Assembly: GCA_973851085.1 (NCBI GenBank)
Contig: OZ316775.1
Location: forward strand, 6,820,001-6,884,000
DNA from: Ptychomitrium polyphyllum
Taxonomy: Eukaryota
Direction: 5' to 3'
DNA length: 64,000 bases
The notes below the pieces were generated by a model. The model was given only the letters and a program-made list of their open reading frames with translations, ran no database searches and was not told the origin of the DNA. The translations under genes were made by a program, and so were the position numbers. Positions 17,825 to 59,060 of the stretch are shown one piece after another (the first letter of the stretch is position 1; each line of letters starts with the position of its first letter).

Positions 17825-17865
<41 letters not shown>
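17825..17865. repeat. (AT)20 microsatellite
   Basis: Uninterrupted alternating AT run of 41 nt. Confidence 0.97.
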
Positions 17866-26459: not shown

Positions 26460-28333
26460 AATGCCATGATTAGCGCGGCTGAACAAACGCCCTCCCCTCC
26501 CGAGGCAAGAGGCGCCGATGGCCGCACCGGAAGAGCCTGTCTCGAGAAAGGAAAATATCGGACGGCCCCGATCGGCCGATGGCTTGACAATGGCCGCTCC
26601 CGTCCGCACGGTTCTGTTTCCCTAATACGGGAACAGCACCCTCGCGCCGTCGGATCCGCATCGTACGGCGCACAGAGACGTACCGTAAGGCAGGGGGGAG
26701 AACAGGGGGGGAGACGAGAGAGGGCAGTCGCAGTGGAGCAGGAGTGTAGTGGTAGAGCAGTGAATGCCAAGCCATAGCCAAGGACACGCTGCACGCCACG
26801 CTTGCTCTTGCGCTGCCGGACGGGCCGCAGTCGCAGTGGCCGCAGAGCAGCACCAGCAGCGGCACTTTCACCTTCGTCTCGCCTGTTTTCATTCCCAGGT
26901 TCTTGTTCTGCTCTTCTTTCTGGTTTCTCATTGTGTGGTTGCTGGGAGGATGCAGCTGAGTTCGGAGGTGAGGTGAGGTGAGGTGAGGTGAGGTTTGTTT
27001 GCGATTTTTTTGGAGTGAGGTCGTGTCGGTGGTCGAGGCCGGGGATTGGAGGGAGCGTGGTTACTTGCAGGTCGGTGTTAGGTCTACGGGGAGCTTCGTC
27101 AATTTGGACCGGTTTTCGGGGTTCTTGTGCCCTAAGTTGGTGGCGCTTTGGGGGGATCGTTTATGTTTACTTGTCAGGTGGATTGGAGTGCTTTTTGAGA
27201 GGAGATTGTTCTTCCTGCATTTGCAATGAGGGTGGAGATTAGGGAGCTTTTAATTGACGAGAGTATGGAGTGAGTTGTAGATTCGACGAGTTTGGAGATG
27301 TGAGAGGGGAGCAGCTGGCAATTTGTAGCGGTTTTCCAGAGGTTTCAGAATTTGGAAGTCAACTTGGACGTGTTGTTTTGCGGTTCAGTTGACACGCTGG
27401 TTAGTTGGAAGAATTCACCACATTCTGTGCTTGCTGTGTGAAGTCATCGGAATGCCGTTCTCATCTCGCAGCCATTTGTGCCACCAGTCGCATGTAAATA
27501 GTTTAACTTCGAGGTTTTGAAAATTTCTCAGTCCGAAATGCGCAATATTGTAGCTCCTGCGTTCATTAAAATCTAAGGAATCACAGGTAGAATATATCCA
27601 ATGATTCTGAACTACTCCGCAAAGACACGTAGAAGCTTTCTAACTCAATACTTTCTTCCAAACACGGAGACTCCTAATACTCACACAAGCGAATTCCGTT
27701 ACAGGCCAAATTGCGGTCAGAATTATAGAACCAACACCACACTCCAAGTACAAGCTTAGGACTTTCATTCCTTAATTCCTTCATTCCTTTTGCTTAAAGG
27801 AATTAATTTCTAGGATCAAAAGCAAACTTCGCCAAACACTCTGGTTAAAACTTTCTGCTCGATTGCGCGCAGCAACAACGATTACGTCGTCCTAGTGGTG
27901 CTTCGACGTCACCCGAACTCTTGTCAGATATACCACTTTCTACGTTTGCTCACGTCTGAAAACTATTAGCGACCCCTTGGTCTTCCTGATTACTTTGTAG
28001 CAGTACTCATCTCCTTAGTGTTGCATGTCGGACAAGCATGGGTGTGAGGGAAAGTTCGGCTGAGGGCCTCCGATTCGAAATATGACCTAACAGGCTGAGC
28101 TATTTGCAGAGATTGGAGGCGTGCAGCTTGGACATCAAGTTGACATCGAAGAAATTCGAAGAACAGCAGATTGCTTGTACCAAGACGCCTACCTTCTAGG
28201 ATACAGGCAGGTTTTGATTGCACTTGGCAACATATCGGTGACGACCAAGAGACGCGAGGTGGACGGTCAATGCTTAACATTTGCGATCGCGCTGATGAAA
28301 TGTGAATAGTAGTGAAAGTGAGTGTACAGGGGA
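26460..28333 (+). promoter_or_regulatory. Promoter, noncoding first exon, leader intron and 5' UTR of Pumilio copy A
   Basis: GC-rich block at about 26460-26970, donor-like GAG|GTGAG at 26968, and acceptor CTGATTACTTTGTAG ending at 28000. Short motifs and the leader exon are shared, in diverged form, with the region upstream of copy B. Confidence 0.6.
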
Positions 28334-30037
28334 ATGGCGACAGAGAGCCCTATCAGGGTGATGGCAGGAGGGGTAAGGAGGAACGTGGGAGGGCTTGCAG
28401 ACGGCTTGAGGGCCGAGAACGGAAGCTCGCAGACTCTGGATGGAATGACCGAGTTGGGCCGCCTTCTGAAAGGGCGGACCCGGTTCGACAACATCTTGAA
28501 TTCGGGGCACGTACCGCAGCGGAGCGGCAGCGCCCCCCCCAGCGTGGAGGGGTCACTGGCGGCGATGGGTGGGCTGTTCGACATGCCGACGAGCCCGAAG
28601 GGCGGGCGCGGCTTGAGCGCCCAGTCGGGAGGCGACGACGTTTTGGATGCGGAGGAAGCGCAGCGCGCGGATCCCGAGTATCTGGTGTACTACTACAGCA
28701 ACATCAACCTGAATCCGAGGCTGCCCCCGCCGCTGATATCGTGGGACAATTATCGACTGGCACAGAGGCTGCAATCGGGATTGGGAGCCGGCGGGTACGG
28801 GGACAAGAAGAAGCTGCGGTCGATGGACGACAGCAGCAGCAGGTCGTTGTTTTCGAGCCAGCCGGTGTTGCCGACACACAGGGAGGAGCCGGAGGCTGCA
28901 GAGGAGGAGAGCTCAGCGAACTCGCCGATGGGCGCCCTGGCGAGAACGGCGTCGAGCGACTGGGCAGAGAGGGGGGATGGTTTCATGGGGCTGTCGTCGG
29001 GACTGGGGCCCCGCCCTAAGAGCCTGGTGGATCTGATTCAGGTACATGAGCTAGTGGTGCAGGCGGCTGTAGGGCTGGATGGACGAGTCGGTGTGTTGGT
29101 GCTTGAGTGGTTGGTTAGGGTTGTGGGGAGAGGTTCCGGGTGAGGCGTGGTGATAGTGGTAGTGGCATAGGAGTGGAGGGTGAGTTCTGTGGCGTGAGGC
29201 GGAGCGGAGGGGCGAGGAACGCCTCCCGGAAGGTGGGGATTGGCGACGGCGGTGTACGTAGTGGTATCGAGCAAAATGGTGGATGGAGTGGTATCTGAGA
29301 ATGTGCACATGTGGGACGTTGGCAGGAGGATTTCCCGCGAACGCCGTCTCCCGTGTACCACCTGTCTCGGTCGTCGAGCCGAGCGGCGAACGACGAGAAC
29401 GAGGCCGCGGCGGCGGTGTTGGAGCTGCAACTGGCTCATCTGCGGGAGTCGGCCCCGGGGGAGGCGAGTGGCGCGGGAGGTGGCACGGGATCCCGGTCGA
29501 CGACTCCCATTCCCGGAGGGTCGAATCTGCACCAGTCTTCGGGTCCCGCGGCTCCCGTGCCAAGGATTCCGACACCGGAGATTTCGCTGGGCGGCAATGT
29601 TCGCTCCGCGAGTCCGAGCCTGGCGAGGATGGGCGGGCCACCAGGTACAGCGTGTCTGCCTGTTGCGTGGAATGTGCATGCGCGGAGTGGTGGGTGCAAG
29701 AGGAGGGCGGGGCGGGGTTGTGTGTTTTCGTGCATTGGTGATGTGGGAGTGGAGGCGGAGGTTGAGGAGGGGAAAGTTGGGCTGACGTTGTGAGATGAGG
29801 GGGCGGGGTTGTGACATCAGGGCCTTCGGGAGGAAGCATGGGGTTCCAGGGCTCGGATGGAAGGAGCATGGGGCTGGGTCGGGCCGCGAGTGCAAGCGCC
29901 GCGGATTTCGCCCACGCACTGCAGATGAACAGGTCGGCGAGTGCGAGCAATGCGGATCTGGTAGCAGTGATGCAAGGGTTGAGTATGTCGGACGTGCAGG
30001 GATCGACGAGTGCAATGGACGAGAGGGAGCTGCAACA

Positions 30038-30069
<32 letters not shown>

Positions 30070-33000
30070 TTCAGCAACAACAACAACTGCAGCAGCAGCA
30101 GCAGGAGCAACAGCAGGTGCGGCTTCAGCAGCAGCAGCAGCAGCAGCAGCAACGGCAGCAGCAGCAGCAGCGGGCCCAAATAGCTGCTCAGGCACAGGCA
30201 GCTCAGGTGAGTTGCAGTGACGGTGTTGTTGAGCATTGGAGGGAGAATGGGGCGGGCGGGTGTGGGAGGTGTAGAGAGCGCACATGGGTGGTGTGATGGC
30301 GCGGTGCAGTGTCGTGTTTGAGTGCTGCGTGAGTGTGTTGGGGGTTCACCTGAGACGCATTGCGCGACGTGTTGTTTGGTCCAGGCATTGGCGTACTCTC
30401 AGGCTTTGCAGCAGCAGCAGCAGCAGCAGCAGCTGTATTCGGGCGTGGAGTCTGGATTCCGTGGTCAGGCGAAGTTCGGGGTGCCCGGCATGGCAGGCCA
30501 ACAAGGTCAAGCGGCGGGTCTGCAAGGCAACACAAGCCCGGCGAACATGTACGCTGCGGCAGCGGCTGCAATGTACATGGCGCAGCAGAACCCGTACTAT
30601 GCGAACATGAACTCTGCAGCAGCCGTTTATGGGCCGCAGTATGGGCTGGGTGGTTACCCCGTGAACCCTGCGATGCTGGCCCCGATGATGGCCGGGTACC
30701 CGCCTCCGGTGTTCGATCCGGCAACTGCGGCTGCGCTTGCGAGCATGGGCGTGAGAGGCGGCGTGCCGGGTTCTCCTGGGCAGTCCGGCGTGGATTTGCA
30801 GAATCTGTACAAGTACGGGAGTGGAGCGTCAGCGCAGATGCACGATCCTATTTATTTGCAGTACCTGCGGGCGGCGGAGGAGGCACGCGCGGCCGCTCTG
30901 GACCCGTCTCTGTTGAGGAGCTACATGGGGGGAGGCCATGTGGACATGGCGGAGCTGCAGAAGAACCAGCTGAGCGCGATGCTGGGGTACAGCGCGGAGC
31001 AGAAGGCGCAGTTTGCGAGGACGGGGTCGATGGGAATCCCGATCTCGAGCCAGAAGAGCGGATCGGTGAGCCCAGCTTACTACGGCAGTCCTCCGGGAGT
31101 GGGGATGGTGGCGTTCAACAACTCGCCCCTGACGAGCCCCGTGCTGCCGGGGTCGCCGGTGGGGGCGGGGAGCTTCGGAGTGCGGCGGGACGAGCGCAGC
31201 ATGCGGCTGTCGGCGGGATCGAGGACGAGCTCTGGGAACGCGGGATCCGGTGGCGGCGGGGCGTATGCAGGGTGGCAGGGGCAGAAGTCGAGCGAGTCGA
31301 CAGAGGAGGTGCGGGGGTCGACGCTACTGGAGGAGTTCAAGAACAGCAAGACCCGGCGGTTCGAGCTGTCGGACATTGCGGGGCACGTGGTGGAGTTCAG
31401 GTATGGGTGGGCGGGGCGCGGGAATGGAGCAGTGCAGTGGTGAAGTGGGGTGGGGTTGGGTGAGAATGGTGGAGGATGGAGGATGGGGCTTGATGAGTTT
31501 GCGTGTGGTAGAGACGTTGTGGAGGGGTTGTGGGAGGGAGGCGAGCGTGAGTGATGACAGGGATGTTTGCGTTGGAGTGCAGTGCGGATCAGCACGGGAG
31601 CAGGTTCATTCAGCAGAAGCTGGAGACGGCGACTCCGGAGGACAAGAACATGGTGTTCCAGGAGGTGCTTCCGCGAGGTCTGACGCTGATGACGGACGTG
31701 TTCGGCAACTACGTGATCCAGAAGGTAGGAGGGGTGGGGAGCGGGAGGTGTGTGTGAGCAGTGGGCGTGCAGGCGGACATGTGGCGGGAGGGGGTGGGGC
31801 GGGCGTGGCAGGTGGTTGCGGCGGGGGCGGTGTTTGGTTTGGGAGGTGTGGGAGGCTGACATGTTGTGTGGCTGCGGCAGTTTTTCGAGCACGGCACCCA
31901 GCAGCAGAGGAGGGAGCTGGCGAGCGAGTTGGTGGGGCATGTGCTGGTGCTGAGTTTGCAGATGTACGGGTGCAGGGTGATTCAGAAGGTAGGGCGCGTC
32001 CGGGGTGGAGTGGGATGGGCGGATGGGAGCGTGGTTGACGAGAGCTGAGAGGGCACGGGGAGTGGGGCGGGGAGGGTGGGTGGTTTTGGGTGCGTGATGG
32101 GGGGAGCTGACCCGCGTGTGTGGGACGTGGGCAGGCACTGGAGGTGGTGGACGTGGATCAGCAGACGCAGCTGGTGTCGGAGCTGGACGGGCATGTGATG
32201 CGGTGCGTGCGGGACCAGAACGGGAACCACGTGATCCAGAAGTGCATCGAGTGCGTGCCGCCGGACAAGATCCATTTTATAATCTCGGCGTTCTACAACC
32301 AGGTGGTGACACTGTCGACGCATCCTTATGGATGCCGGGTGATACAGGTAGACGGGCCTGCCCTCTGGCACGGTGCGGCGGGGTTCTGGTTTTATGGATT
32401 GGGATGGGCGGCGTTGTTGGTGTTCCGGGTCGGAGGGGCTAGATGCGGTGTGCGTCGCTGAGCGTGCGATGTGATGTTTGTTGGGGGTGTGGGCGGATTC
32501 AGAGGGTCCTGGAGCACTGCACGGACGAGCAGAAGCAGAAGGGGATCATGGAGGAGATTTTGCGTTCGACATGTGCTCTCGCCCAAGATCAGTATGGCAA
32601 TTACGTTGTGCAGGTCCGTGTGGTGCAGTTTGGGGTGGGCGTTTGTGGGTGGGGGGGTGGGAGTGCAAGGCTGGCGCTGGAGATTGGTCGTGTGGTGGAT
32701 GTTATGTCGGGGCGTAGCGGAGTGAGAGCATGGTTGTGAGAGGGTAGTGGTGATTGTGGTGGGTGGCATTGGAAGTTGCGAATGCCAGAGGGCGTTGCAG
32801 TGCCGCGGGGTATGTGTGTGTGTGTATGTGTGTGTGGGGGGGTGGGGGCGGATGATGCATTTGCTAACGTTTGGACGCACGCGGTGGTTGTTGGACGATG
32901 ATTCAGCATGTGCTGGAGCACGGGCGGGATGACGAACGAAGGGAGATCATAACGAAGCTGGCGGGGCAAATTGTACAAATGAGCCAACACAAGTTTGCGT

Positions 33001-33745
33001 CGAACGTGGTGGAGAAATGCCTGGAGTATGGCGGTCCTGTGGAGCGGCAGATTCTGATCGATGAGATGCTTGGGCTGACCGACGAGAACGAGCCACTGCA
33101 GGTACGAGCTGAGGTTGGGTGGTGGGTGCTGGCTTGCGAGGGCCCGGACGATGGCGGAAAGCCACGCGATTGGGCCGTCGGGGTGGCGGGGCGGAGTTTT
33201 GGGTTGGAGTGGGGAGTAGGGAGGCGGAGGGATGGGTTCGTAGTGTGGAGGTCGAGAGGTGCGTGGGATGAGCAGCGGGTGTGTGGTAGTTGCCGGGGCC
33301 GGGTGGATATCGGGTGTGCAGATGGGTGACCTGGGGGGTACGCGGGGTTTTGCAGGCGATGATGAAGGACCAGTTCGCGAACTACGTGGTCCAGAAGGTC
33401 CTGGAGACGTGCGACGAGTCGCAGCGCGAGCTGCTGCTGGGCCGCATCCGGGTGCACCTGCATGCGCTGAAGAAGTACACGTATGGCAAGCACATTGTTG
33501 CGCGGGTGGAGAAGCTTGTGGCTGCCGGTGGTGAGTGGCGTGTTCCCATTGGCGGCAGAGTGACGCGCAGCGAGGGTTGGTGGAGTGCGAGGCGACGTGA
33601 TGATGTGTCTTGTGCGTGGGTGTGAGTTGGTGAGCAGGAGGGGTGGGCAGTGGGCGAGGTGGGGTCGTTGTCTGACGGGCGTTGCGTGTGTGTGTGTGCA
33701 GAGAGGCGGAGCGCTGCGTACATGGCGCACAACTCGGGCGCGTGA
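28334..33745 (+). CDS. PUM: Pumilio/PUF RNA-binding protein (APUM1-6 type), copy A, 11 coding exons, about 1138 aa
   Basis: Exons 28334-29041, 29326-29644, 29821-30206, 30385-31400, 31583-31724, 31881-31988, 32135-32347, 32503-32613, 32907-33101, 33356-33530, 33702-33745 (3417 nt, all GT-AG, phases consistent). N-terminal motifs [28 protein letters not shown] and [19 protein letters not shown]. Eight PUF repeats run from [15 protein letters not shown] to [15 protein letters not shown], followed by [16 protein letters not shown]. Confidence 0.96.
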
Positions 33746-36700
33746 GCGTGAGGCGGGGGCGTGGGACGATGGTGGGTTTTCTGAGAGGCGGGAGGGTGTC
33801 TCATCGCGGCGCGTCGTGGAGGACGAGAGGCGAGCGCGCTTCCGGTGGCGTTCCGTGGCGACATGGAAGAGGTGGTGGGTCGTCGAGGTGGCGATGGAGG
33901 GCAGGTGGTCCAGCGGGGAGAGGGCAACCGTGAGCAGTAAATAGTGTAATCGTGTAGGATTGTATTCAGCTTGTGTTTGAAGGTCGGGGAGAGGGGCGGG
34001 GCAAGCGGTATCGCAGGTCGCACCGGCATGTAAGTTATTTGGTGCGGATTGGTGTCGGTAGTGGGTTGTACGTACGAGCAGGAGCTCTATATATTGGGGG
34101 TCGGGAGCGGCGGGAGAAGTGCCGGCGCTCCGGGGTCTGGGGACCCAGCCCTGGTCTCTCCCTGGTAGTGTGTGATTTCAGGTGGGACGGTCGGACATGG
34201 GACAGTGTGAATGGGTAGGGGGCAACGTTAGACTCGTGTGAAGAGAAGGAAAGGGTCGAGGCAGGAGTTAGCTGTAACGGGCGTGTATAAAGAGCAAGCG
34301 TCCTTCGTTCCAAAGTGTACAGACTGGCATGTGTAGGTCTCGTGGCAAGACGTTGGTTTTGAAGGATCGGAGGGGGGTTTGTGGGAGGGCCCCTTCCTTT
34401 CTTGCTAGTGCTGCTACGGAAGGTTAGTTCTCTGTGCAGCTATTGCGCCAGGGCCCTCATGATGTAAATAGGGCCCCTTCAATTGCAAGGGCCAGCTGGC
34501 AATGTCTTTATTCTTTTTATCCCGGGCGTGAGGGTGGGGGTGGGGGGCGGTGTGGAGGACGGTCGTGTGTGGGCCCATGTGATTTGTGCGCGGTTCGGTG
34601 GCCCTGAAGGGGGCGCGGAGATCCTGGCGTTCCCAGGCTGTGGTCTGTCCGCGCACGAACGGGAACGCATTGGGCCGTGGAGTGTGCCTGTTGGGAATGG
34701 TGGATTGTGGTGAGTTTTGTACGCGAGGTGCGGAGTTTTGAGTTTGCGTGCAGGCGGCCATATTGGTTGGTGTTTTGTAAGTGGTGCCGATGTTTCCCCA
34801 GAATTCTGTCAGTGGCGACCACGATGCAAGTGTTCCACCCTGCCAGAGCTTCCAAGAAGCATGTTGCAGAGGATGTGAGATGTGGATGTCGGAGATGGTC
34901 GCTGCTAGCTAGAACGAAGTGATGATTTGGAGTAGAGGGGAAGGGCCGCGTGTAGGAGATGTGAGTGCGTGCAAGAGGTGTCTTGTGAGGTGCATTGTTA
35001 GGGACGTGGAAGGAAGCGGAAGGGTTTTGGATTCGGATGGGTTGTGGATTCGGATGGGTTGGCAGGAGGAGGCTAGAGTTTATGCTTGTATGGTGTGTAA
35101 AAGAAGAGCGTTGCAAAAAGGACGTGGGTAGCTGATGAGAGATGGGCCTTGGTGTGTGGATGAGGGTGTATGCTGTCGTGGATGTAGTTGGACATGTGCT
35201 GTGTCATGTGCGTCAGAACGAAATGCTGGACGCTTACAATGGATGCAAGTGGAGGGCGTCGTGGTTGGATGGAGGCGAAGGTGAGCATGGGGCGTCGTTG
35301 GCAGCACGATGGCGTTGAGGTTTTGTTTGGCATGATGTGAGTGATTATGGTTGGGCGTGGGTGAGGAGCGATGGCGGCGTGTTTGTGTTTGTAGAGGGTA
35401 GATGGGTGGGGATGGTTGTGTTCCTATGGGCAAGTATATTGTACGATGCGAATAGGGCTCATTGTGGATGGCGTTGCGTTGGTATTTATGAGCACACAAA
35501 TATACTCCATGGCTTGCATTGCCATATTTGTCCATTTCGTTGGTGCAACGTCTTGGGACAAAGGCGAAGTGGAAGGCCGTGAGTTGGAGTTGGGAGTTTG
35601 TGGATGCCCGATTTTGGGGAGTTTGGGGTGCAAGTTTTGTGGTTGTTCTAGATACACGTGAAAGGAATTGGAACAATAGCATGGAAGTTTGTTTTGAGTT
35701 TGGGAGGCTAGTCACATGTGTGAATGAAAGGAGTCATCAATGTGGAGAGTTTTGTGACCCATTTGTTCTTGGACAGAGGACTGCTGCTCATGCAAGTAGT
35801 GGAGTACAGTGTTGGTAGTACTTTGTTAATAGTGTATAGTTAGTGTTGTTAGTTTTGTTTTAGATTTTGTGGATGCTTCTTTTTGGTGGGTACAATGTGT
35901 TCAACATGTATTGATATGATTGTAGGTACCATGTTCATGGACGTTGCAGACGGATTGGATACGTGTGATGAAAACGAAATGTAATATCAAGAAACTGAGA
36001 AGTTTGAATTCAAAGGTCATTTTGCCATTTGTTTATCAAAGTTTGGATCATTGGTGAAATTTGGACTTGTAGGTTGGTACGTTGACTTTTGTGTTTTGTA
36101 ACATTTGAATGATGTTATTGTTTTTGCAAGAGTTTGTAAGTTGGATTTTGAGATTTGTAGCATTATATCATCAATGCAACTTTTTGATTTTTGAGATCAT
36201 ATAGAGGTTTGTATAGGAAGTGGGAAGCAAGGTTTTATGAGCATATGTGAAGCATTAGAAGTTTGTTCATACTTCATGAGCAATGTGATTGTATGGGTTC
36301 AATGGACGTGTGCTAGAGGTGCATGAGTTGTAAATTCACACGATGTTTAGAGTCCTCAAAGTAAGGTGTGAATAGTGACCATTTCATTTCATACTAAAAG
36401 AACATGCGTATTGATAAAATATTCATTACATTTAGGCGTAATGAACTTTGTGTACAACCTTTGAATGCAAGATTGAATATTGATATGCCTTTTGAAGAAA
36501 AATGAGAGGTTTGAATTTCCAAATAATATCCATGGTCCTCAACTGCAATTAGCTAATTGATTGTAGTAAGAACATTGTCAACTACAATTGTTGTTGTAAT
36601 CTGCATTATGTCAATTTTTGTAGTCTATCCTTTCAGTGAGTGAATAGTCCAAACTTTTCATCAAGAATGTGGGAATGTTTTTCTGTTCAAATTGTAGCCC

Positions 36701-38524: not shown

Positions 38525-38760
38525 CGACAAATTTCGAGGAAAGCCCTGGCTCATTCAGGGATAAGTGCACTATGCAAGTTTAGGAGAGACTAAATAAAAG
38601 AGTGACACAGAATTGTACATTTCTTGATGGTCTCCAACTCGGCACCAGCTCGGCGTGCTGCATTGACGGCCTTCTCGTCCGTCTTTGCACCAGAAGTCGG
38701 GGCCTTCTTCCTCACCACCACAGGCTCCCAGTCTTGTCTCAAATCTCCCATACCCGCCAT
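37441..38760 (-). CDS. MBF1: Multiprotein bridging factor 1 (MBF1a/b type), 4 exons, 142 aa
   Basis: Exons 38760-38619, 38382-38299, 37954-37872, 37560-37441 (429 nt). Protein: [142 protein letters not shown]. This has the MBF1 N-terminal domain and the HTH. Confidence 0.96.
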
Positions 38761-40300: not shown

Positions 40301-40597
40301 GCAATGTTTTTAGTTGTACAGTTGTCCCTATCTAATATGACAGATTTGGGGAACAAGAAATTTATTATATAACTAAATGTCACATTTTTCATTATATGAT
40401 ATTTAAGGCATTTGATGTCTTAGTATTGAGATTTTCAAAATTTGACCAAAATAAGAATAAAAACACCTTACAATGGTTATTAATTATTAAAAATATACTT
40501 TCTGTCTACTTAGATTTACAATACTAAGCTTTAATGACAACCAACCATAGTTGCTACACATGCCTTAGCTGCCATCCAAATCTTAAACATCATCTTC

Positions 40598-40646
40598 AAA
40601 TCCTAGTTGCTACACAAATCCTAGTTGCTATACAAATCCTAGTTGC
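40598..40646. repeat. 18-bp tandem repeat, about 2.7 copies
   Basis: AAATCCTAGTTGCTACAC, AAATCCTAGTTGCTATAC, AAATCCTAGTTGC. Confidence 0.8.
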
Positions 40647-46530: not shown

Positions 46531-47045
46531 AATGACGTATTATGATAAATCAATAGCAGTTAGCTTTACGAAAAAGATTTCCAACACACAAGTACAAGGA
46601 AGGGGGAACAATATCCAACCTTCAATTGTATGCGGGATTATTTCCAATATAGATCATCTCTAGATCCTAGCTAGTATGCTAAATCTTCATATATTCTCAA
46701 ATATGCATGAAAAGCAATTCCCCATGCTCTCTTAAACAGCAGCACCAACTCAACCACCTCAACTTTCCCAACTTTCATTGCCAAAGGATCTAAGCCAAAA
46801 TATGAGAGCGGCCTTCCAACATCAAGTGCGACTTTGTGCAAAAATATTGGTCAGTCACATTCCAATCTTAATTCAAATATTCAGGCTCTACTCATCTAAC
46901 TGAAAATAAAACCACTTACTCCTGAAACCAAAGAACCTCTTTGGAGGATATTTTAAAGAACTCCATCAACATCAAATCTTCGGGTGGGACATTTCAACAA
47001 CAAAAGTCATGGGAGGCAGTCATTGTCGCTCCTTGCAAGGACCAC

Positions 47046-50000
47046 TCTATGAGTGGTCGCCGTTGTCACTGTTGTTCTTCTCCTTTGGGTGCCGATGCTG
47101 CGAACCAGCGATAAAGAAGATACGGCAGAGGGTTTCCCTGAAGTTGTCGCTTTATGGCACTGATTAGTTCTACGACTCTGTGTGCAGTCAACGCCGGATC
47201 CAACAAGGCAGCTACGAGTGCAACCGGTTTGAACACGAAAAGGCTGGATGACGAGACCGACGTCCTTGCTCGTGAGTGAACCAATCCGACTGCATCTTGT
47301 GACTGCTGTTTGTAAATGTCAGTTGCTGTGCGGTGCAAACGTCTGACGCAGCTGACTTTGTGTTGCTGTTGCTGTCGTTGGTGATGTGTGATGATCGTGA
47401 GACCTGAGGGCATGGGTGGGATGCTTGGTTGTGATATTAGTGCGATTGGAGCAGGCTAATAGTGCGGCGAGTGGTGTGGAATTGATGTTACCCTCCGGCC
47501 GTTGTTTGTTGTCACATTGAATGCGGTGGGCAGTGGTGGTGTAGTCCATGTTGTTTTGGTCGTGGAAAGCTGGTCGGGAACAGTGCTGAACCGTTGCAAC
47601 CCGGTTTTGGAACAGACGAGAAAGTATCAGGAGAACTGAAGAAGAACATCATGCAGGCGCGGTTGGACAAGAAGCTGACACAAGCCCAACTTGCGCAGGT
47701 GTGTCTCGTTATTCCTGTAGGCGATAAGGGTATTTGTGATTTTTCAGCGCACACAGTCTGCGTCTCTTGGGTTGTATCGTATCCAGGACTACGGGTAACA
47801 GGCCGGCTTGAATGGCAGTCCAGAGCACACGCCGCCTGGTACGTGGCGCAATCTGGTTTTGGGGATTGCTAGTATACACAGAGAGGTGTTGTTGAGGATG
47901 TAGCAAGCCTAGTGTGAAGTGATTTGACTCCACATGAGGTAGTTGGTCAGCTTTGGAGATTCGTTCTGGTGTCGGTTGGAGGTATTGAGTGTGGCGCTTG
48001 GCGATGCAGCTGATCAACGAGAAGCCACAGATTGTTCAAGAGTACGAGTCAGGGAAAGCAATTCCGAACCAGCAGATCATTGCAAAGTTGGAACGTATTC
48101 TTGGCGTGAAGTTACGAGGCAAGAAGTAAATACTAGTGTAGAGATTGTCTGAGAGCTCTCGATACCATTGGTTGTTTGGCGGCTGAAAGCCAGCATTCTC
48201 CTTTTTTCATTCTGCTGGTTTCCAGTCATGAGGTGACGAGCAGAGCTGGCTGGCGTTCGATGTGATTCAAGGGAAGGGTTGAGTGGGATTACTTCTTGCT
48301 TATTGGATCTAGAAGATAGTTGGACTTTGAGTGTCTGGAAATGATTACGATTAGTTGTAAAACTATAGTGATGGGATGTTGGTATGGAGCAGTTTTCGGT
48401 GTCTTAATTGCGTTTAGTGGTATATACTGTACGAGATCTTTGCAATGGGTCAATGCTTCAATGACGATCGAGAGCCCTGGCTTCCAACCCCTTGGGTTCT
48501 GCCGTTCAATCTTCTTCGGTAGATTATACGTTAGGATGAGCTGTGACGTCTAGTACCAGTGATCAGGCTTGACATTTGCACCGAGTTATAATACTTTCGA
48601 CATTTGGTGTTTTGGTGATATTGTGTGGAAATTGGGCGTTTCTCTGATAGACTTAAGCAAATTTGATCCTTACATGGTCCTGTGTTGGTCGAGATGTGAG
48701 GTTAACTCTCCAAATTCTTGACATAGTTACCCCGATAGTAGTCTTCGGGAAAGCTGCGGTCAAAATTGACAGTAGAATTTCATTTCAAGTCTATGGAAGC
48801 CACTACCGTCCGAGTCCCAGTGGTGCTTAGTAGTGGAACTCGCATACTTTCTAAACATTGGCAGATTTTGGGCTACAATTTGAACAGAAAAACATTCCCA
48901 CATTCTTGATGAAAAGTTTGGACTATTCACTCACTGAAAGGATAGACTACAAAAATTGACATAATGCAGATTACAACAACAATTGTAGTTGACAATGTTC
49001 TTACTACAATCAATTAGCTAATTGCAGTTGAGGACCATGGATATTATTTGGAAATTCAAACCTCTCATTTTTCTTCAAAAGGCATATCAATATTCAATCT
49101 TGCATTCAAAGGTTGTACACAAAGTTCATTACGCCTAAATGTAATGAATATTTTATCAATACGCATGTTCTTTTAGTATGAAATGAAATGGTCACTATTC
49201 ACACCTTACTTTGAGGACTCTAAACATCGTGTGAATTTACAACTCATGCACCTCTAGCACACGTCCATTGAACCCATACAATCACATTGCTCATGAAGTA
49301 TGAACAAACTTCTAATGCTTCACATATGCTCATAAAACCTTGCTTCCCACTTCCTATACAAACCTCTATATGATCTCAAAAATCAAAAAGTTGCATTGAT
49401 GATATAATGCTACAAATCTCAAAATCCAACTTACAAACTCTTGCAAAAACAATAACATCATTCAAATGTTACAAAACACAAAAGTCAACGTACCAACCTA
49501 CAAGTCCAAATTTCACCAATGATCCAAACTTTGATAAACAAATGGCAAAATGACCTTTGAATTCAAACTTCTCAGTTTCTTGATATTACATTTCGTTTTC
49601 ATCACACGTATCCAATCCGTCTGCAACGTCCATGAACATGGTACCTACAATCATATCAATACATGTTGAACACATTGTACCCACCAAAAAGAAGCATCCA
49701 CAAAATCTAAAACAAAACTAACAACACTAACTATACACTATTAACAAAGTACTACCAACACTGTACTCCACTACTTGCATGAGCAGCAGTCCTCTGTCCA
49801 AGAACAAATGGGTCACAAAACTCTCCACATTGATGACTCCTTTCATTCACACATGTGACTAGCCTCCCAAACTCAAAACAAACTTCCATGCTATTGTTCC
49901 AATTCCTTTCACGTGTATCTAGAACAACCACAAAACTTGCACCCCAAACTCCCCAAAATCGGGCATCCACAAACTCCCAACTCCAACTCACGGCCTTCCA

Positions 50001-53000
50001 CTTCGCCTTTGTCCCAAGACGTTGCACCAACGAAATGGACAAATATGGCAATGCAAGCCATGGAGTATATTTGTGTGCTCATAAATACCAACGCAACGCC
50101 ATCCACAATGAGCCCTATTCGCATCGTACAATATACTTGCCCATAGGAACACAACCATCCCCACCCATCTACCCTCTACAAACACAAACACGCCGCCATC
50201 GCTCCTCACCCACGCCCAACCATAATCACTCACATCATGCCAAACAAAACCTCAACGCCATCGTGCTGCCAACGACGCCCCATGCTCACCTTCGCCTCCA
50301 TCCAACCACGACGCCCTCCACTTGCATCCATTGTAAGCGTCCAGCATTTCGTTCTGACGCACATGACACAGCACATGTCCAACTACATCCACGACAGCAT
50401 ACACCCTCATCCACACACCAAGGCCCATCTCTCATCAGCTACCCACGTCCTTTTTGCAACGCTCTTCTTTTACACACCATACAAGCATAAACTCTAGCCT
50501 CCTCCTGCCAACCCATCCGAATCCACAACCCATCCGAATCCAAAACCCTTCCGCTTCCTTCCACGTCCCTAACAATGCACCTCACAAGACACCTCTTGCA
50601 CGCACTCACATCTCCTACACGCGGCCCTTCCCCTCTACTCCAAATCATCACTTCGTTCTAGCTAGCAGCGACCATCTCCGACATCCACATCTCACATCCT
50701 CTGCAACATGCTTCTTGGAAGCTCTGGCAGGGTGGAACACTTGCATCGTGGTCGCCACTGACAGAATTCTGGGGAAACATCGGCACCACTTACAAAACAC
50801 CAACCAATATGGCCGCCTGCACGCAAACTCAAAACTCCGCACCTCGCGTACAAAACTCACCACAATCCACCATTCCCAACAGGCACACTCCACGGCCCAA
50901 TGCGTTCCCGTTCGTGCGCGGACAGACCACAGCCTGGGAACGCCAGGATCTCCGCGCCCCCTTCAGGGCCACCGAACCGCGCACAAATCACATGGGCCCA
51001 CACACGACCGTCCTCCACACCGCCCCCCACCCCCACCCTCACGCCCGGGATAAAAAGAATAAAGACATTGCCAGCTGGCCCTTGCAATTGAAGGGGCCCT
51101 ATTTACATCATGAGGGCCCTGGCGCAATAGCTGCACAGAGAACTAACCTTCCGTAGCAGCACTAGCAAGAAAGGAAGGGGCCCTCCCACAAACCCCCCTC
51201 CGATCCTTCAAAACCAACGTCTTGCCACGAGACCTACACATGCCAGTCTGTACACTTTGGAACGAAGGACGCTTGCTCTTTATACACGCCCGTTACAGCT
51301 AACTCCTGCCTCGACCCTTTCCTTCTCTTCACACGAGTCTAACGTTGCCCCCTACCCATTCACACTGTCCCATGTCCGACCGTCCCACCTGAAATCACAC
51401 ACTACCAGGGAGAGACCAGGGCTGGGTCCCCAGACCCCGGAGCGCCGGCACTTCTCCCGCCGCTCCCGACCCCCAATATATAGAGCTCCTGCTCGTACGT
51501 ACAACCCACTACCGACACCAATCCGCACCAAATAACTTACATGCCGGTGCGACCTGCGATACCGCTTGCCCCGCCCCTCTCCCCGACCTTCAAACACAAG
51601 CTGAATACAATCCTACACGATTACACTATTTACTGCTCACGGTTGCCCTCTCCCCGCTGGACCACCTGCCCTCCATCGCCACCTCGACGACCCACCACCT
51701 CTTCCATGTCGCCACGGAACGCCACCGGAAGCGCGCTCGCCTCTCGTCCTCCACGACGCGCCGCGATGAGACACCCTCCCGCCTCTCAGAAAACCCACCA
51801 TCGTCCCACGCCCCCGCCTCACGCTCACGCGCCCGAGTTGTGCGCCATGTACGCAGCGCTCCGCCTCTCTGCACACACACACACGCAACGCCCGTCAGAC
51901 AACGACCCCACCTCGCCCACTGCCCACCCCTCCTGCTCACCAACTCACACCCACGCACAAGACACATCATCACGTCGCCTCGCACTCCACCAACCCTCGC
52001 TGCGCGTCACTCTGCCGCCAATGGGAACACGCCACTCACCACCGGCAGCCACAAGCTTCTCCACCCGCGCAACAATGTGCTTGCCATACGTGTACTTCTT
52101 CAGCGCATGCAGGTGCACCCGGATGCGGCCCAGCAGCAGCTCGCGCTGCGACTCGTCGCACGTCTCCAGGACCTTCTGGACCACGTAGTTCGCGAACTGG
52201 TCCTTCATCATCGCCTGCAAAACCCCGCGTACCCCCCAGGTCACCCATCTGCACACCCGATATCCACCCGGCCCCGGCAACTACCACACACCCGCTGCTC
52301 ATCCCACGCACCTCTCGACCTCCACACTACGAACCCATCCCTCCGCCTCCCTACTCCCCACTCCAACCCAAAACTCCGCCCCGCCACCCCGACGGCCCAA
52401 TCGCGTGGCTTTCCGCCATCGTCCGGGCCCTCGCAAGCCAGCACCCACCACCCAACCTCAGCTCGTACCTGCAGTGGCTCGTTCTCGTCGGTCAGCCCAA
52501 GCATCTCATCGATCAGAATCTGCCGCTCCACAGGACCGCCATACTCCAGGCATTTCTCCACCACGTTCGACGCAAACTTGTGTTGGCTCATTTGTACAAT
52601 TTGCCCCGCCAGCTTCGTTATGATCTCCCTTCGTTCGTCATCCCGCCCGTGCTCCAGCACATGCTGAATCATCGTCCAACAACCACCGCGTGCGTCCAAA
52701 CGTTAGCAAATGCATCATCCGCCCCCACCCCCCCACACACACATACACACACACACATACCCCGCGGCACTGCAACGCCCTCTGGCATTCGCAACTTCCA
52801 ATGCCACCCACCACAATCACCACTACCCTCTCACAACCATGCTCTCACTCCGCTACGCCCCGACATAACATCCACCACACGACCAATCTCCAGCGCCAGC
52901 CTTGCACTCCCACCCCCCCACCCACAAACGCCCACCCCAAACTGCACCACACGGACCTGCACAACGTAATTGCCATACTGATCTTGGGCGAGAGCACATG

Positions 53001-55462
53001 TCGAACGCAAAATCTCCTCCATGATCCCCTTCTGCTTCTGCTCGTCCGTGCAGTGCTCCAGGACCCTCTGAATCCGCCCACACCCCCAACAAACATCACA
53101 TCGCACGCTCAGCGACGCACACCGCATCTAGCCCCTCCGACCCGGAACACCAACAACGCCGCCCATCCCAATCCATAAAACCAGAACCCCGCCGCACCGT
53201 GCCAGAGGGCAGGCCCGTCTACCTGTATCACCCGGCATCCATAAGGATGCGTCGACAGTGTCACCACCTGGTTGTAGAACGCCGAGATTATAAAATGGAT
53301 CTTGTCCGGCGGCACGCACTCGATGCACTTCTGGATCACGTGGTTCCCGTTCTGGTCCCGCACGCACCGCATCACATGCCCGTCCAGCTCCGACACCAGC
53401 TGCGTCTGCTGATCCACGTCCACCACCTCCAGTGCCTGCCCACGTCCCACACACGCGGGTCAGCTCCCCCCATCACGCACCCAAAACCACCCACCCTCCC
53501 CGCCCCACTCCCCGTGCCCTCTCAGCTCTCGTCAACCACGCTCCCATCCGCCCATCCCACTCCACCCCGGACGCGCCCTACCTTCTGAATCACCCTGCAC
53601 CCGTACATCTGCAAACTCAGCACCAGCACATGCCCCACCAACTCGCTCGCCAGCTCCCTCCTCTGCTGCTGGGTGCCGTGCTCGAAAAACTGCCGCAGCC
53701 ACACAACATGTCAGCCTCCCACACCTCCCAAACCAAACACCGCCCCCGCCGCAACCACCTGCCACGCCCGCCCCACCCCCTCCCGCCACATGTCCGCCTG
53801 CACGCCCACTGCTCACACACACCTCCCGCTCCCCACCCCTCCTACCTTCTGGATCACGTAGTTGCCGAACACGTCCGTCATCAGCGTCAGACCTCGCGGA
53901 AGCACCTCCTGGAACACCATGTTCTTGTCCTCCGGAGTCGCCGTCTCCAGCTTCTGCTGAATGAACCTGCTCCCGTGCTGATCCGCACTGCACTCCAACG
54001 CAAACATCCCTGTCATCACTCACGCTCGCCTCCCTCCCACAACCCCTCCACAACGTCTCTACCACACGCAAACTCATCAAGCCCCATCCTCCATCCTCCA
54101 CCATTCTCACCCAACCCCACCCCACTTCACCACTGCACTGCTCCATTCCCGCGCCCCGCCCACCCATACCTGAACTCCACCACGTGCCCCGCAATGTCCG
54201 ACAGCTCGAACCGCCGGGTCTTGCTGTTCTTGAACTCCTCCAGTAGCGTCGACCCCCGCACCTCCTCTGTCGACTCGCTCGACTTCTGCCCCTGCCACCC
54301 TGCATACGCCCCGCCGCCACCGGATCCCGCGTTCCCAGAGCTCGTCCTCGATCCCGCCGACAGCCGCATGCTGCGCTCGTCCCGCCGCACTCCGAAGCTC
54401 CCCGCCCCCACCGGCGACCCCGGCAGCACGGGGCTCGTCAGGGGCGAGTTGTTGAACGCCACCATCCCCACTCCCGGAGGACTGCCGTAGTAAGCTGGGC
54501 TCACCGATCCGCTCTTCTGGCTCGAGATCGGGATTCCCATCGACCCCGTCCTCGCAAACTGCGCCTTCTGCTCCGCGCTGTACCCCAGCATCGCGCTCAG
54601 CTGGTTCTTCTGCAGCTCCGCCATGTCCACATGGCCTCCCCCCATGTAGCTCCTCAACAGAGACGGGTCCAGAGCGGCCGCGCGTGCCTCCTCCGCCGCC
54701 CGCAGGTACTGCAAATAAATAGGATCGTGCATCTGCGCTGACGCTCCACTCCCGTACTTGTACAGATTCTGCAAATCCACGCCGGACTGCCCAGGAGAAC
54801 CCGGCACGCCGCCTCTCACGCCCATGCTCGCAAGCGCAGCCGCAGTTGCCGGATCGAACACCGGAGGCGGGTACCCGGCCATCATCGGGGCCAGCATCGC
54901 AGGGTTCACGGGGTAACCACCCAGCCCATACTGCGGCCCATAAACGGCTGCTGCAGAGTTCATGTTCGCATAGTACGGGTTCTGCTGCGCCATGTACATT
55001 GCAGCCGCTGCCGCAGCGTACATGTTCGCCGGGCTTGTGTTGCCTTGCAGACCCGCCGCTTGACCTTGTTGGCCTGCCATGCCGGGCACCCCGAACTTCG
55101 CCTGACCACGGAATCCAGACTCCACGCCCGAATACAGCTGCTGCTGCTGCTGCTGCTGCTGCAAAGCCTGAGAGTACGCCAATGCCTGGACCAAACAACA
55201 CGTCGCGCAATGCGTCTCAGGTGAACCCCCAACACACTCACGCAGCACTCAAACACGACACTGCACCGCGCCATCACACCACCCATGTGCGCTCTCTACA
55301 CCTCCCACACCCGCCCGCCCCATTCTCCCTCCAATGCTCAACAACACCGTCACTGCAACTCACCTGAGCTGCCTGTGCCTGAGCAGCTATTTGGGCCCGC
55401 TGCTGCTGCTGCTGCCGTTGCTGCTGCTGCTGCTGCTGCTGCTGAAGCCGCACCTGCTGTTG

Positions 55463-55502
<40 letters not shown>

Positions 55503-57115
55503 TGTTGCAGCTCCCTCTCGTCCATTGCACTCGTCGATCCCTGCACGTCCGACATACTCAACCCTTGCATCACTGCTACCAGATCCGCATTGCTCGCACT
55601 CGCCGACCTGTTCATCTGCAGTGCGTGGGCGAAATCCGCGGCGCTTGCACTCGCGGCCCGACCCAGCCCCATGCTCCTTCCATCCGAGCCCTGGAACCCC
55701 ATGCTTCCTCCCGAAGGCCCTGATGTCACAACCCCGCCCCCTCATCTCACAACGTCAGCCCAACTTTCCCCTCCTCAACCTCCGCCTCCACTCCCACATC
55801 ACCAATGCACGAAAACACACAACCCCGCCCCGCCCTCCTCTTGCACCCACCACTCCGCGCATGCACATTCCACGCAACAGGCAGACACGCTGTACCTGGT
55901 GGCCCGCCCATCCTCGCCAGGCTCGGACTCGCGGAGCGAACATTGCCGCCCAGCGAAATCTCCGGTGTCGGAATCCTTGGCACGGGAGCCGCGGGACCCG
56001 AAGACTGGTGCAGATTCGACCCTCCGGGAATGGGAGTCGTCGACCGGGATCCCGTGCCACCTCCCGCGCCACTCGCCTCCCCCGGGGCCGACTCCCGCAG
56101 ATGAGCCAGTTGCAGCTCCAACACCGCCGCCGCGGCCTCGTTCTCGTCGTTCGCCGCTCGGCTCGACGACCGAGACAGGTGGTACACGGGAGACGGCGTT
56201 CGCGGGAAATCCTCCTGCCAACGTCCCACATGTGCACATTCTCAGATACCACTCCATCCACCATTTTGCTCGATACCACTACGTACACCGCCGTCGCCAA
56301 TCCCCACCTTCCGGGAGGCGTTCCTCGCCCCTCCGCTCCGCCTCACGCCACAGAACTCACCCTCCACTCCTATGCCACTACCACTATCACCACGCCTCAC
56401 CCGGAACCTCTCCCCACAACCCTAACCAACCACTCAAGCACCAACACACCGACTCGTCCATCCAGCCCTACAGCCGCCTGCACCACTAGCTCATGTACCT
56501 GAATCAGATCCACCAGGCTCTTAGGGCGGGGCCCCAGTCCCGACGACAGCCCCATGAAACCATCCCCCCTCTCTGCCCAGTCGCTCGACGCCGTTCTCGC
56601 CAGGGCGCCCATCGGCGAGTTCGCTGAGCTCTCCTCCTCTGCAGCCTCCGGCTCCTCCCTGTGTGTCGGCAACACCGGCTGGCTCGAAAACAACGACCTG
56701 CTGCTGCTGTCGTCCATCGACCGCAGCTTCTTCTTGTCCCCGTACCCGCCGGCTCCCAATCCCGATTGCAGCCTCTGTGCCAGTCGATAATTGTCCCACG
56801 ATATCAGCGGCGGGGGCAGCCTCGGATTCAGGTTGATGTTGCTGTAGTAGTACACCAGATACTCGGGATCCGCGCGCTGCGCTTCCTCCGCATCCAAAAC
56901 GTCGTCGCCTCCCGACTGGGCGCTCAAGCCGCGCCCGCCCTTCGGGCTCGTCGGCATGTCGAACAGCCCACCCATCGCCGCCAGTGACCCCTCCACGCTG
57001 GGGGGGGCGCTGCCGCTCCGCTGCGGTACGTGCCCCGAATTCAAGATGTTGTCGAACCGGGTCCGCCCTTTCAGAAGGCGGCCCAACTCGGTCATTCCAT
57101 CCAGAGTCTGCGAGC
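47046..57115 (-). repeat. Right arm of the ~10.1-kb inverted repeat
   Basis: Reverse complement of 28425-38524, 30 bp shorter because of the polyQ indel. Confidence 0.97.
47188..48129 (+). pseudogene. MBF1: 5'-truncated MBF1 duplicate (exons 2-4 only)
   Basis: Exons 47188-47271, 47616-47698 and 48010-48129 mirror the intact gene. Homology stops at 47046 inside intron 1. No exon-1 sequence (ATGGCGGGTATGGGAGAT...) is visible upstream. Confidence 0.9.
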
Positions 57116-57206
57116 CTCCGTTGTCAGCCCTCGGGCCCTCTCGGAGCCCTCCCATGCTCCCTCTCATCCCTCCGGCCATCATCCTCACAGGGCTCTCCGT
57201 CGCCAT
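51825..57206 (-). CDS. PUM: Pumilio/PUF RNA-binding protein, copy B, 11 coding exons, about 1128 aa
   Basis: Exons 57206-56499, 56214-55896, 55719-55364, 55185-54170, 53987-53846, 53689-53582, 53435-53223, 53067-52957, 52663-52469, 52214-52040, 51868-51825, mapped by mirror symmetry. Distinct N-terminus [31 protein letters not shown] and a polyQ region 10 aa shorter than in copy A. Confidence 0.95.
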
Positions 57207-59060
57207 TTCACTATAGACTGGCCGTCACCATTACTCACATACCACCGGCACGGCCGCAATTTGCGAGCATTCTCCGCCCACCTCGCCTGACTTGCTCACG
57301 AACTATATGTCTCCAACAGCCACTAGGCCCTCCCGATACCCTAGAGGGCCAACGTCTCGTTAGAAGCCATCTCCTGTGCTCCGCATTTCTTCCATGTCAG
57401 CGAATGGCCCGGTTGCGTGCTTTCAATCTCTGCACACAGCTCAGCCTGTTAGGTCATATATCGAATCGGAGGCCCTCTTCGGCTGAAGTATCCCCGACAC
57501 ATATACTAGTCCTACATGCAATAACTAACGAGATTAATACTGCTACGAAATAATCAGGAACACCAAGAGGTCGTTCACAAAATATTACGAACAGCTGTTG
57601 GAGTAGCTATGTGAGGATTTTGTGAATCTTGCTATCGCCGCGATTTTGAATTGGAACCACTGCACGTCTCAACTCCTCGTCGAGAAGTTGCCGGATATGA
57701 TTCTTTCTTGGCCTAGAAGGTGAATCTAGAAAAGAGCTGCAAACCTAAAATGATAGACCTAAAGTACGCCTGGAGGATGTTAACTGGAACCATGAACATG
57801 CCTGAGCTTGAGAATTACACAAGTAACTAAAATTCCAGAAACAGAAGGCTTACAAGACTTGCACGAGTCTAAATAGAAATTTTCATGTTGTATGAGGCCG
57901 TTGGTCAGTAAATATTTAACAGCTCTGCGCTCAAACCTAAGCCCGAAAACAAGACTTAAGCTGAGCTGCAACAGATCGTGATGTCAATTATTGATGAATC
58001 GATCCGGAATCCAGCAACTAACGGAATGTGCCAACGAAGATTTCAGCAAGACCAGGAGATTTTTTGTAATACAGTCGTCTTGCAAAACCTCCATAAGTCC
58101 GACGCAGGAAGTCCAGAATTTACAGTCTTTGCCCCAGGTTCCTCAAATCTCATTATCGACGAAATAATCGGCATAATGTAGTTCCAAGCGATAGATCTCG
58201 AAAAACTCAGACGCCAACTATTTTTAAGCAATTCTTCGCACAAAAACCGTAACACGAGAACAGGAACTGGATCATCTTTCCAGGCCAAGTGCTGACGTCG
58301 CAAATTCCTATACCCAGCCGCAGCGATTGCAGAACCGACAATAAATAACTAATCCAGCGGACATTCGAAGTCGATGGCCAGCTCCCATAACTTTCCACCA
58401 CCATTGAAACATCCAAACTCAACTCCACACCCCCGTTGAATAAAGCCTCAGTCGTTTTCACCGTCGTTTAAAATGCCGAAAGAGACCTATCCCCTCGGAG
58501 CGGAGCAATCTCCCCGAAGCGCCGTGATGACCACACCGAACACCACGAGGAAAGCATAAAGATTTAGGGCACAAGAAACAGAAAAACGCAGAAAGCAAAA
58601 TCAGGCAGCTACCATGAACCTCACACCAACCTGGCACGCCACGCTCTGCGATCGCTCCGCTACCGAAGCTCCCGCCAGGGGCTAGGAAGAGAGCGAGGCC
58701 CCGGTGCCCAGCCCGGCAGTGGTCGGCGACGAGGTGCGTGTGCCTCGCGTGGCGATGGCGCGGCACCTCGCAGCACGCCCCTCGCTCCCCGCAGCGCCCC
58801 CCACCTCCCCACCTCGGCCTCCGCCCGCCATCCGATGTCCCATCCCACGGCCCTCGCTGCTCCCCGCTGGCCACCATTTGTGTTCCCGCAACCGTGTAAG
58901 GGAAACGGCACCCGCACCCTCGCTGCCCCTTTCCCCTGCCCTACGCTCGTCGCCGGTGGAGCTCCGCCGTCCGATCCTCTCCGCTCTTGACGCCGTACCG
59001 TCCACAAGGCGGCATCGGCGTCCCTGGGGAGAGGCGCATTAAGCCGCGCGCTAATCAAGA
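57207..59060 (-). promoter_or_regulatory. Promoter, first exon, leader intron and 5' UTR of Pumilio copy B
   Basis: Minus-strand acceptor CTGATTATTTCGTAG near 57543 is homologous to that of copy A. A GC-rich block at 58630-59060 shares short motifs with 26460-26640. Confidence 0.6.

What the first reader, a model, noticed from the sequence alone, without database searches (positions are those of the whole stretch)
26460..59060. Gene palindrome apparently under concerted evolution: old inverted Pumilio paralogs with a homogenised 10-kb core
Seen: two inverted arms (28425-38524 and 47046-57115) around an 8.5-kb spacer. They appear identical across exons, introns and AT-rich intergenic DNA, except for a 30-bp polyQ indel and two edge substitutions. 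Directly outside the arms the copies stay homologous but are much more diverged (20/91 nt in the first coding bases, a diverged leader, only short motifs shared in the promoter). Inference: one recent duplication cannot give both patterns. An old inverted duplication whose core was later overwritten by arm-to-arm gene conversion can, as is known for mammalian Y palindromes. The result is a near-identical protein driven by two different promoters, and a possible repair template in a haploid-dominant plant. Identity was judged from mirrored ORFs and spot checks only.
Basis: partly seen in the sequence, partly recalled or inferred. Interest (0 to 1): 0.88.

Follow-up and report, generated by a model that had tools for sequence, protein, structure and literature searches.

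The report
Old moss gene pair recently overwritten
A moss carries two mirror-image copies of an RNA-binding (Pumilio) gene that are identical over 10 kb but keep old, very different front ends, most likely because one copy was recently overwritten from the other, a clear case of a known process (gene conversion) that seems to involve a third copy as well.

Summary
The arms 28425-38524 and 47046-57115 differ at 0 of 10,050 core sites (6,467 non-coding), plus a 30-bp polyQ indel and 2 substitutions at the inner edge. Just outside, identity falls to 67-95%. Contigs from the probable source sample show the arms at two to three times flank depth and both 5' versions at single depth, so a collapse artefact is unlikely. 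A related moss holds one left-type and one right-type 5' region and two diverged gene bodies: 5' parts group by locus across species, the core within the species. That supports an old pair plus recent copying. New here: a third paralog outside the window appears to share about 99%-identical patches (right promoter, first 2.2 kb of the core, MBF1 3' part). The right arm carries only a promoterless MBF1 fragment and ends in a repair-like scar. So this looks like patchy, repeated ectopic conversion ending in one 10-kb event; steady Y-palindrome-type upkeep is not shown. Near-identical tandem genes attributed to conversion are already described in Physcomitrium, and this scan noted a similar peat-moss palindrome (e1-9810761). 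A new member of a known kind; interest 0.42.

The parts
28425..38524 (+). Left arm of the inverted repeat (PUM body, 3' and intergenic DNA, MBF1 exons 2-4)
47046..57115 (-). Right arm; identical to the left except a 30-bp polyQ indel and 2 inner-edge substitutions
28334..33745 (+). PUM-L coding region, 11 exons, 1138 aa; NABP and PUF domains
   Evidence: gene model; Pfam PF07990 and PF00806; 82-86% identical to the four full-length P. patens paralogs
51825..57206 (-). PUM-R coding region, 11 exons, 1128 aa; differs from PUM-L at 11 of the first 31 residues and by 10 polyQ-tract residues
37441..38760 (-). Complete MBF1 gene (4 coding exons, 142 aa), tail to tail with PUM-L; exon 1 (38760-38619) lies outside the arm
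   Evidence: Pfam PF08523 and PF01381
47188..48129 (+). MBF1 fragment (exons 2-4) with no exon 1 anywhere else in the window, yet identical to the intact gene
   Evidence: tblastn finds exon 1 once and exons 2-4 twice
27970..28424 (+). Old, diverged homology outside the left arm (end of the 5' UTR intron, leader, first 30 codons); 74% overall
57116..57573 (-). Right-hand counterpart of the diverged leader and first codons
   Evidence: single-depth contig 57086-58506 with 0 differences
26462..27095 (+). Left promoter / first 5' exon region; a contig of organism B matches 26609-27148 at about 87%
58380..59062 (-). Right promoter / first 5' exon region; 58477-58810 shared at about 99% and 58781-59059 at about 90% with a third locus outside the window (inferred from contigs)
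30059..30088 (+). 30-bp polyQ-tract indel, the only difference inside the core
47023..47058 (.). Inner junction of the right arm: an 8-bp-arm hairpin (47040-47058) abutting a 12-bp palindrome (47030-47041), then a 6-bp match to the left sequence; read as a templated repair scar (inferred)
28432..30615 (+). Tract apparently shared at about 99% with the third paralog (one contig at about three-copy depth over 28432-30019, no separate paralog contig; the third paralog separates at 30616)
   Evidence: inferred from contig depth and branching
37089..38424 (-). MBF1 3' tract apparently shared with a third copy (depth 104-110 against 71.7 in the neighbouring intergenic contig, run X2)
   Evidence: inferred
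38525..47045 (.). 8.5-kb spacer: MBF1 exon 1 and upstream region, AT-rich repeats, and a decayed LTR-retroelement-like stretch at about 41814-46610
   Evidence: sequence; 41814-43381 is 72-81% like 60709-62527; element type read by eye, Pfam gave no hit on its two ORFs

Best explanation
Two old Pumilio paralogs of a moss face each other as an inverted pair, and their 10-kb core is identical most likely because homology-directed repair recently copied it from one locus onto the other, the latest of what appear to be several patchy conversions among three paralogs. Shown: the identity, the sharp step at 28424/28425, intact frames, the orphan MBF1 fragment and the junction palindromes. Inferred: the 5' regions split before this moss parted from organism B. 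A break was then repaired using the neighbouring paralog as template. The outer end resolved in conserved exon-1 sequence where homology was good enough. The inner end on the right was closed by end-joining with short templated insertions inside MBF1 intron 1. Earlier, shorter conversions left patches of about 80-99% identity between the left copy, the right copy and a third locus. The predicted outcome is one protein body under two old promoters and leaders. The direction is not settled: the scar points to left-to-right copying at the inner end, while organism B's contigs suggest the PUM body comes from the right-type lineage.
For: (1) 0 of 10,050 core sites differ, 6,467 non-coding, beside 67-95% identity outside; selection cannot hold introns, intergenic DNA or a promoterless MBF1 fragment identical. 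(2) In run X2, single contigs with 0 differences cover the core at depth 66.3, 71.7 and 93.6, against 36.6 and 38.1 in the unique flanks; both 5' versions appear at single depth (29.6 and 38.1). (3) Organism B has a contig that aligns to the right leader up to 57399 but to the left only from 28300, and another that aligns to the left from about 28217 but skips the right 57241-57384. It also has a left-type promoter contig (68 differences and 39 gaps over 540 bases). Its closer body differs from the core at 78 of about 949 bases. So 5' parts group by locus, the core within the species. (4) A third paralog is separate at 30585-33451 (128 differences in 811 bases; introns not aligned) but has no separate contig over 28432-30019. 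It shares a double-depth contig with the right promoter (3 differences in 334), and its leader is left-like (4 of 30 mismatches to the left, 13 of 30 at the best place on the right side). A nearest neighbour that switches along the gene is the expected mark of repeated conversion. (5) An 8-bp hairpin (6 such in the 64 kb) and a 12-bp palindrome (62 such) sit together at the right junction and none at the left.
Against: No long read spans arm plus flank; no listed contig spans the stretch. The tool warns that contig depth is no copy number, and contigs merge isolated differences (3 such at 58477-58810), so low-level arm differences cannot be excluded from them. X1 and X2 are one sample and probably the assembly's source. 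The third locus is pieced together from depth and branching, and could be more than one locus. Only one other species was compared, through truncated tables (977 and 130 difference rows not shown); its depths vary (133-297) and it may hold three 5' regions. Organism B's two bodies are not homogenised, which argues against constant upkeep. Whether the overwritten body had first diverged, or had been kept alike all along, is unresolved.
Confidence: 0.7

Rival explanations
1. One single recent event: a break in one old paralog was repaired by copying 10 kb from the other, with a homologous outer end and a non-homologous inner end. No repeated or ongoing conversion; the third locus's similarities come from its own chimeric origin or from contig merging.
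For: One sharp outer edge, 0 differences over 10,050 sites, a repair-like scar and an MBF1 fragment cut inside intron 1 all fit one event. Organism B's bodies are not homogenised.
Against: It does not explain patches of several ages: 95% at 28066-28103 between 80% and 67% segments, 99% and 90% promoter patches with the third locus, and two separate shared tracts divided by a 16%-diverged stretch. B's contigs suggest the opposite donor for the PUM body.
Confidence: 0.2
2. Assembly artefact: two diverged paralogs collapsed to one consensus, or one locus falsely duplicated.
For: Long perfect inverted repeats are a known assembly failure (general knowledge); no spanning read could be examined.
Against: Read-derived contigs show the core at two to three times flank depth with 0 differences, both 5' versions at single depth, and no alternative 95-99% core contig in the rows shown. 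The assembly keeps a 30-bp indel and 2 substitutions between the arms.
Confidence: 0.05
3. One young inverted duplication of the whole unit, followed by fast divergence of the 5' ends through relaxed selection or new regulation.
For: 11 of the first 31 residues differ; N-termini are variable among moss paralogs.
Against: Synonymous and intronic sites outside the arm differ at 20-33% while 6,467 non-coding sites inside differ at none; organism B already holds both 5' types.
Confidence: 0.03

Closest known systems
Near-identical tandemly arrayed genes of Physcomitrium patens, proposed to evolve in concert by gene conversion (Lang et al. 2008, not read; seen as cited in passages of PMC3045890, and PMC3729371)
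   Same: Moss, neighbouring paralogs, near-identical sequence, conversion as the proposed cause, paralogs seen as pseudoalleles in a haploid-dominant plant.
   Different: Here the tract edges, the older strata, a passenger MBF1 fragment and a third partner can be seen, and a second species dates the 5' split. The cited passages give no such anatomy.
Primate X and Y palindromes kept alike by arm-to-arm conversion (Jackson et al. 2021, PMC8327919, passages read)
   Same: Arms of at least 8 kb and at least 99% identity around a spacer, genes in the arms, within-species divergence below between-species divergence.
   Different: No sign of a homogenised pair in the related species; promoters and first codons lie outside the arms; a third locus takes part; sex linkage unknown.
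Salix purpurea W-chromosome palindromes (Zhou et al. 2020, PMC7023750, abstract read)
   Same: Plant, gene-bearing inverted arms with evidence of conversion among more than two copies.
   Different: Those span 200 kb with four arms on a non-recombining sex chromosome; this is a 29-kb structure of unknown chromosome type.
Non-allelic gene conversion between duplicates (Harpak et al., 10.1101/135152, passages read; Caenorhabditis review PMC3966223, passages read)
   Same: Local switches of genealogy along paralogs; tracts that include introns; inverted neighbours convert.
   Different: The human estimate is a mean tract of 250 bp, with escape as duplicates diverge; here the last tract is about 10 kb beside flanks 20-33% diverged.

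Membership tests
Conversion-maintained large palindromes (primate X/Y type, criteria of PMC8327919) | Inverted arms of at least 8 kb with at least 99% identity | tested here: met
   10.1-kb arms, 0 of 10,050 core sites differ
Conversion-maintained large palindromes (primate X/Y type, criteria of PMC8327919) | [quoted passage not shown] | tested here: met
   0% between the arms against 78 differences in about 949 bases to the closer body of organism B
Conversion-maintained large palindromes (primate X/Y type, criteria of PMC8327919) | Orthologous palindrome with homogenised arms in other species | tested here: inconclusive
   Organism B shows two diverged bodies at depth 211.7 and 181.2 over 30465-31407 and no double-depth body there; its gene arrangement cannot be seen from contigs
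Conversion-maintained large palindromes (primate X/Y type, criteria of PMC8327919) | Location on a sex chromosome or other region without crossing-over | not testable with these tools
   No whole genome is held for the window
Non-allelic gene conversion between paralogs | Sharp-edged tract of identity, non-coding sites included, inside older homology | tested here: met
   20 of 91 against 0 of 617 in one exon, p = 2e-19; 6,467 identical non-coding sites
Non-allelic gene conversion between paralogs | Genealogy differs between tract and flank (flanks by locus, tract by species) | tested here: met
   Reciprocal left-type and right-type 5' contigs in organism B; core identical only within organism A. 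One species, contig tables only
Non-allelic gene conversion between paralogs | Non-reciprocal transfer with an identified donor | tested here: inconclusive
   One body type occupies both loci, but the scar and B's contigs point to opposite donors
Plant PUM (NABP + PUF repeat) proteins | NABP region and PUF repeats in an intact frame | tested here: met
   PF07990 E 3.5e-40 on exon 4 and PF00806 E 3.8e-15 on exon 9; best hits are P. patens pumilio homolog 1 proteins

The most novel reading that the evidence does not exclude
Moss repair can replace a whole 10-kb gene body between paralogs so old that their introns no longer align, using only short conserved ends, and does so repeatedly among three loci. 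This would swap gene bodies under old promoters and reset the apparent age of duplicates, against the rule that diverged paralogs escape conversion.
Probability: 0.35. Interest if true: 0.65.

Novelty: new member of a known kind. Interest (0 to 1): 0.42.

Why it matters
It gives sequence-level anatomy to a proposal long made for mosses: near-identical neighbouring genes need not be young. Tract edges, older strata and a passenger pseudogene fragment are all visible, so the idea can be tested with assemblies of relatives. If long replacements between diverged paralogs are common, dating moss duplications from coding divergence is biased and promoter-body chimeras arise without new genes. If it was a single event, it is an ordinary though unusually clean conversion.

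Tried and rejected
No whole genome is held, so the third locus could not be read directly. The metagenome scan with exon 1 gave 593 pattern matches and 0 confirmed relatives. No RNA holder was listed for the spacer; this says nothing on expression. Run X4 laid 1 contig of 213 bases and adds nothing. P. patens cannot serve as the orthologous pair: its four paralogs form their own clade on exon 4 (99/96; 16 rows, 15 picked from the hits plus the core). No remnant of a right-hand MBF1 exon 1 or its upstream DNA was found in 40400-47045 (only 16-24-base chance matches). The second inverted match 20232-21122 / 63109-64000 (97.4%) was considered as an outer part of the palindrome and set aside: the coordinate sum differs by 1.3 kb, and it looks like two copies of a young LTR. 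GC-biased conversion was considered: PUM introns are 59-71% GC, but MBF1 introns and the intergenic part of the same arm are 42-52%, so GC does not follow the arm. Literature: searches listed no paper on this locus or on moss gene palindromes of this anatomy; the library lacks most subscription papers. The P. patens genome papers (2008, 2018), the moss MSH2 paper and a moss POLQ paper were not held, so of the MSH2 work only the title was seen, in a reference list. No supplements were read.
Full report
What is in the sequence. The window holds one large inverted repeat, 27970-38524 against 57573-47046. Its core, 28425-38504, matches at every one of 10,050 aligned sites, 6,467 of them non-coding, apart from a 30-bp indel in a polyQ tract; two substitutions follow at 38505 and 38509. 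Outward the copies stay homologous but are old: 78% in the first 91 coding bases, 67% in the leader, 95% and 80% at the end of the 5' UTR intron, and a weak but non-random promoter match (score 83, shuffles at most 45 of 200). The step inside exon 1 is 20 of 91 against 0 of 617 (p = 2e-19). Each side encodes an intact Pumilio protein of 1138 or 1128 residues with NABP and PUF domains. The closest named relatives are P. patens proteins at 82-86%, so the source is a moss other than P. patens. The arms also carry exons 2-4 of an MBF1 gene. Its exon 1 exists once, in the spacer next to the left arm, so the right copy is a promoterless fragment that is nonetheless identical to the intact gene.

Is it real? 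No whole genome or raw reads were available. Contigs built from two runs of one sample (X1, X2; probably the assembly's source, so independent of the assembler only) were laid on 25500-41000 and 56700-59200. In X2 the unique flanks lie on single contigs with 0 differences at depth 36.6 and 38.1. The core lies on single contigs with 0 differences at 66.3, 71.7 and 93.6. Both 5' versions are present at single depth. That is what two identical copies give and a collapsed diverged pair would not.

Is the pair old? Organism B (run X3) holds two leader contigs with reciprocal preferences. One aligns to the right copy up to 57399 but to the left only from 28300. The other aligns to the left from about 28217 but skips the right leader 57241-57384. 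B also has a contig matching the left promoter at about 87% and others matching the right promoter region in patches. Of the 20 differences in the first 91 coding bases, 7 are left-derived and 5 right-derived, both B contigs agreeing with the other copy; 8 are not resolved in the rows shown. B's two gene bodies differ from the core at 78 of about 949 and 110 of about 939 bases and lie at single depth. So the 5' regions split before the two species did, while the core became identical afterwards and only in this species. One recent duplication cannot give that.

A third partner. X1 and X2 contain a further paralog, separate from the core over 30585-33451 (128 differences in 811 bases, introns not aligned). 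Over 28432-30019, two introns included, it has no contig of its own and the shared contig rises to about three-copy depth (93.6 in X2, 955.6 in X1). The same rise is seen over the MBF1 3' part (104-110 against 71.7 in X2). It shares a double-depth contig with the right promoter (3 differences in 334 bases) flanked by about 90% identity, while its leader is left-like. Its nearest neighbour thus changes along the gene. This locus is inferred from depth and contig branching, not read from an assembly, and may be more than one locus.

How it most likely arose. Old duplications left three PUM loci. Repair of breaks by copying from a paralog (inferred) left patches of about 80-99% identity, and the latest event made 10 kb of the inverted pair identical. 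The outer end sits where conserved exon-1 sequence begins. The inner end on the right lies in MBF1 intron 1 and carries an 8-bp hairpin abutting a 12-bp palindrome; the window holds 6 and 62 such elements in 64 kb, none at the left junction. I read this as a templated end-joining scar; that such scars are typical of polymerase theta is recalled, as the moss paper was not held. The scar suggests the right locus received the inner part. My estimate from the difference counts puts B's right-type contig nearer the core (about 7%) than its left-type contig (about 11%), which suggests the PUM body came from the right-type lineage. The direction is therefore open, and so is whether the recipient body had diverged first. 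The predicted result is one protein body under two old promoters and leaders; expression was not tested.

The arms meet the size and identity criteria used for primate palindromes (PMC8327919, passages). Conserved homogenisation in a second species was not seen, and copying is not limited to the two arms. 'Episodic conversion among paralogs' fits better than 'Y-type palindrome', though steady upkeep in this lineage alone is not excluded.

Known context. Near-identical tandem genes and conversion as their cause are already proposed for P. patens (passages of PMC3045890 and PMC3729371; the primary papers were not held or not looked up). Plant palindromes with conversion are known from the willow W chromosome (PMC7023750, abstract). 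Typical non-allelic tracts are a few hundred bases and fade with divergence (10.1101/135152, passages), which makes a 10-kb tract beside 20-33% diverged flanks unusual. Also consulted without bearing on the verdict: PMC2848763 (passages; 11 Puf-like genes in P. patens), PMC2277409 (abstract), PMC7397299 (passages). Searches listed nothing on this locus. The scan's own notes hold a similar peat-moss case (e1-9810761, not checked here) and nothing on this genome or protein.

Verdict. A real feature, well supported as an old pair with recent homogenisation (0.7 for the repeated three-locus version, 0.2 for a single event). A new member of a known kind; interest 0.42.

Noticed in passing
window 19978-21122 and 62699-64000: LTR-like repeats: a left copy of about 1.1 kb, and on the right an older 77% piece (62699-63112) followed by an inverted 97.4% copy (63109-64000, cut by the window end). 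Roughly symmetric about the palindrome but offset by 1.3 kb; probably a young element family.
   Followed up: partly
window 28094-28333 and 57445-57207: The leader exons differ in upstream ATGs: 6 on the right, including an 11-codon uORF near the splice acceptor that the left lacks, against 3 on the left; one 11-codon uORF is positionally shared. Could give the two copies different translational control.
   Followed up: partly
P0124, P0001, P0003, P0125 (P. patens proteins): The four paralogs fall as two pairs on contigs of equal length (25,566,168 and 17,898,148), so probably two per chromosome. P0124 carries accessions from two number ranges and a UniRef count of 2, a hint at a second identical locus.
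   Followed up: no
window about 9899-14690: Exons of a leucine-rich-repeat receptor-like kinase (LRRNT_2 and Pkinase hits).
   Followed up: no
window 29042-33701: PUM introns are 59-71% GC, while MBF1 introns and the intergenic DNA of the same arm are 42-52%.
   Followed up: partly
window 30616-30618: The core has one extra codon in exon 4 that the third paralog and one B body lack; among 15 compared proteins only the unnamed P0136 shares it (14 cover the site), a possible lineage marker.
   Followed up: partly
window 17825-17865: A 40-base perfect self-complementary match in very AT-rich DNA, probably a simple AT repeat.
   Followed up: no
run X3 contigs on window 58062-59003 and 26609-27148: Organism B seems to hold three promoter-type contigs (depths 233.8, 242.4, 203.4) but only two bodies over exon 4; unexplained.
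   Followed up: no
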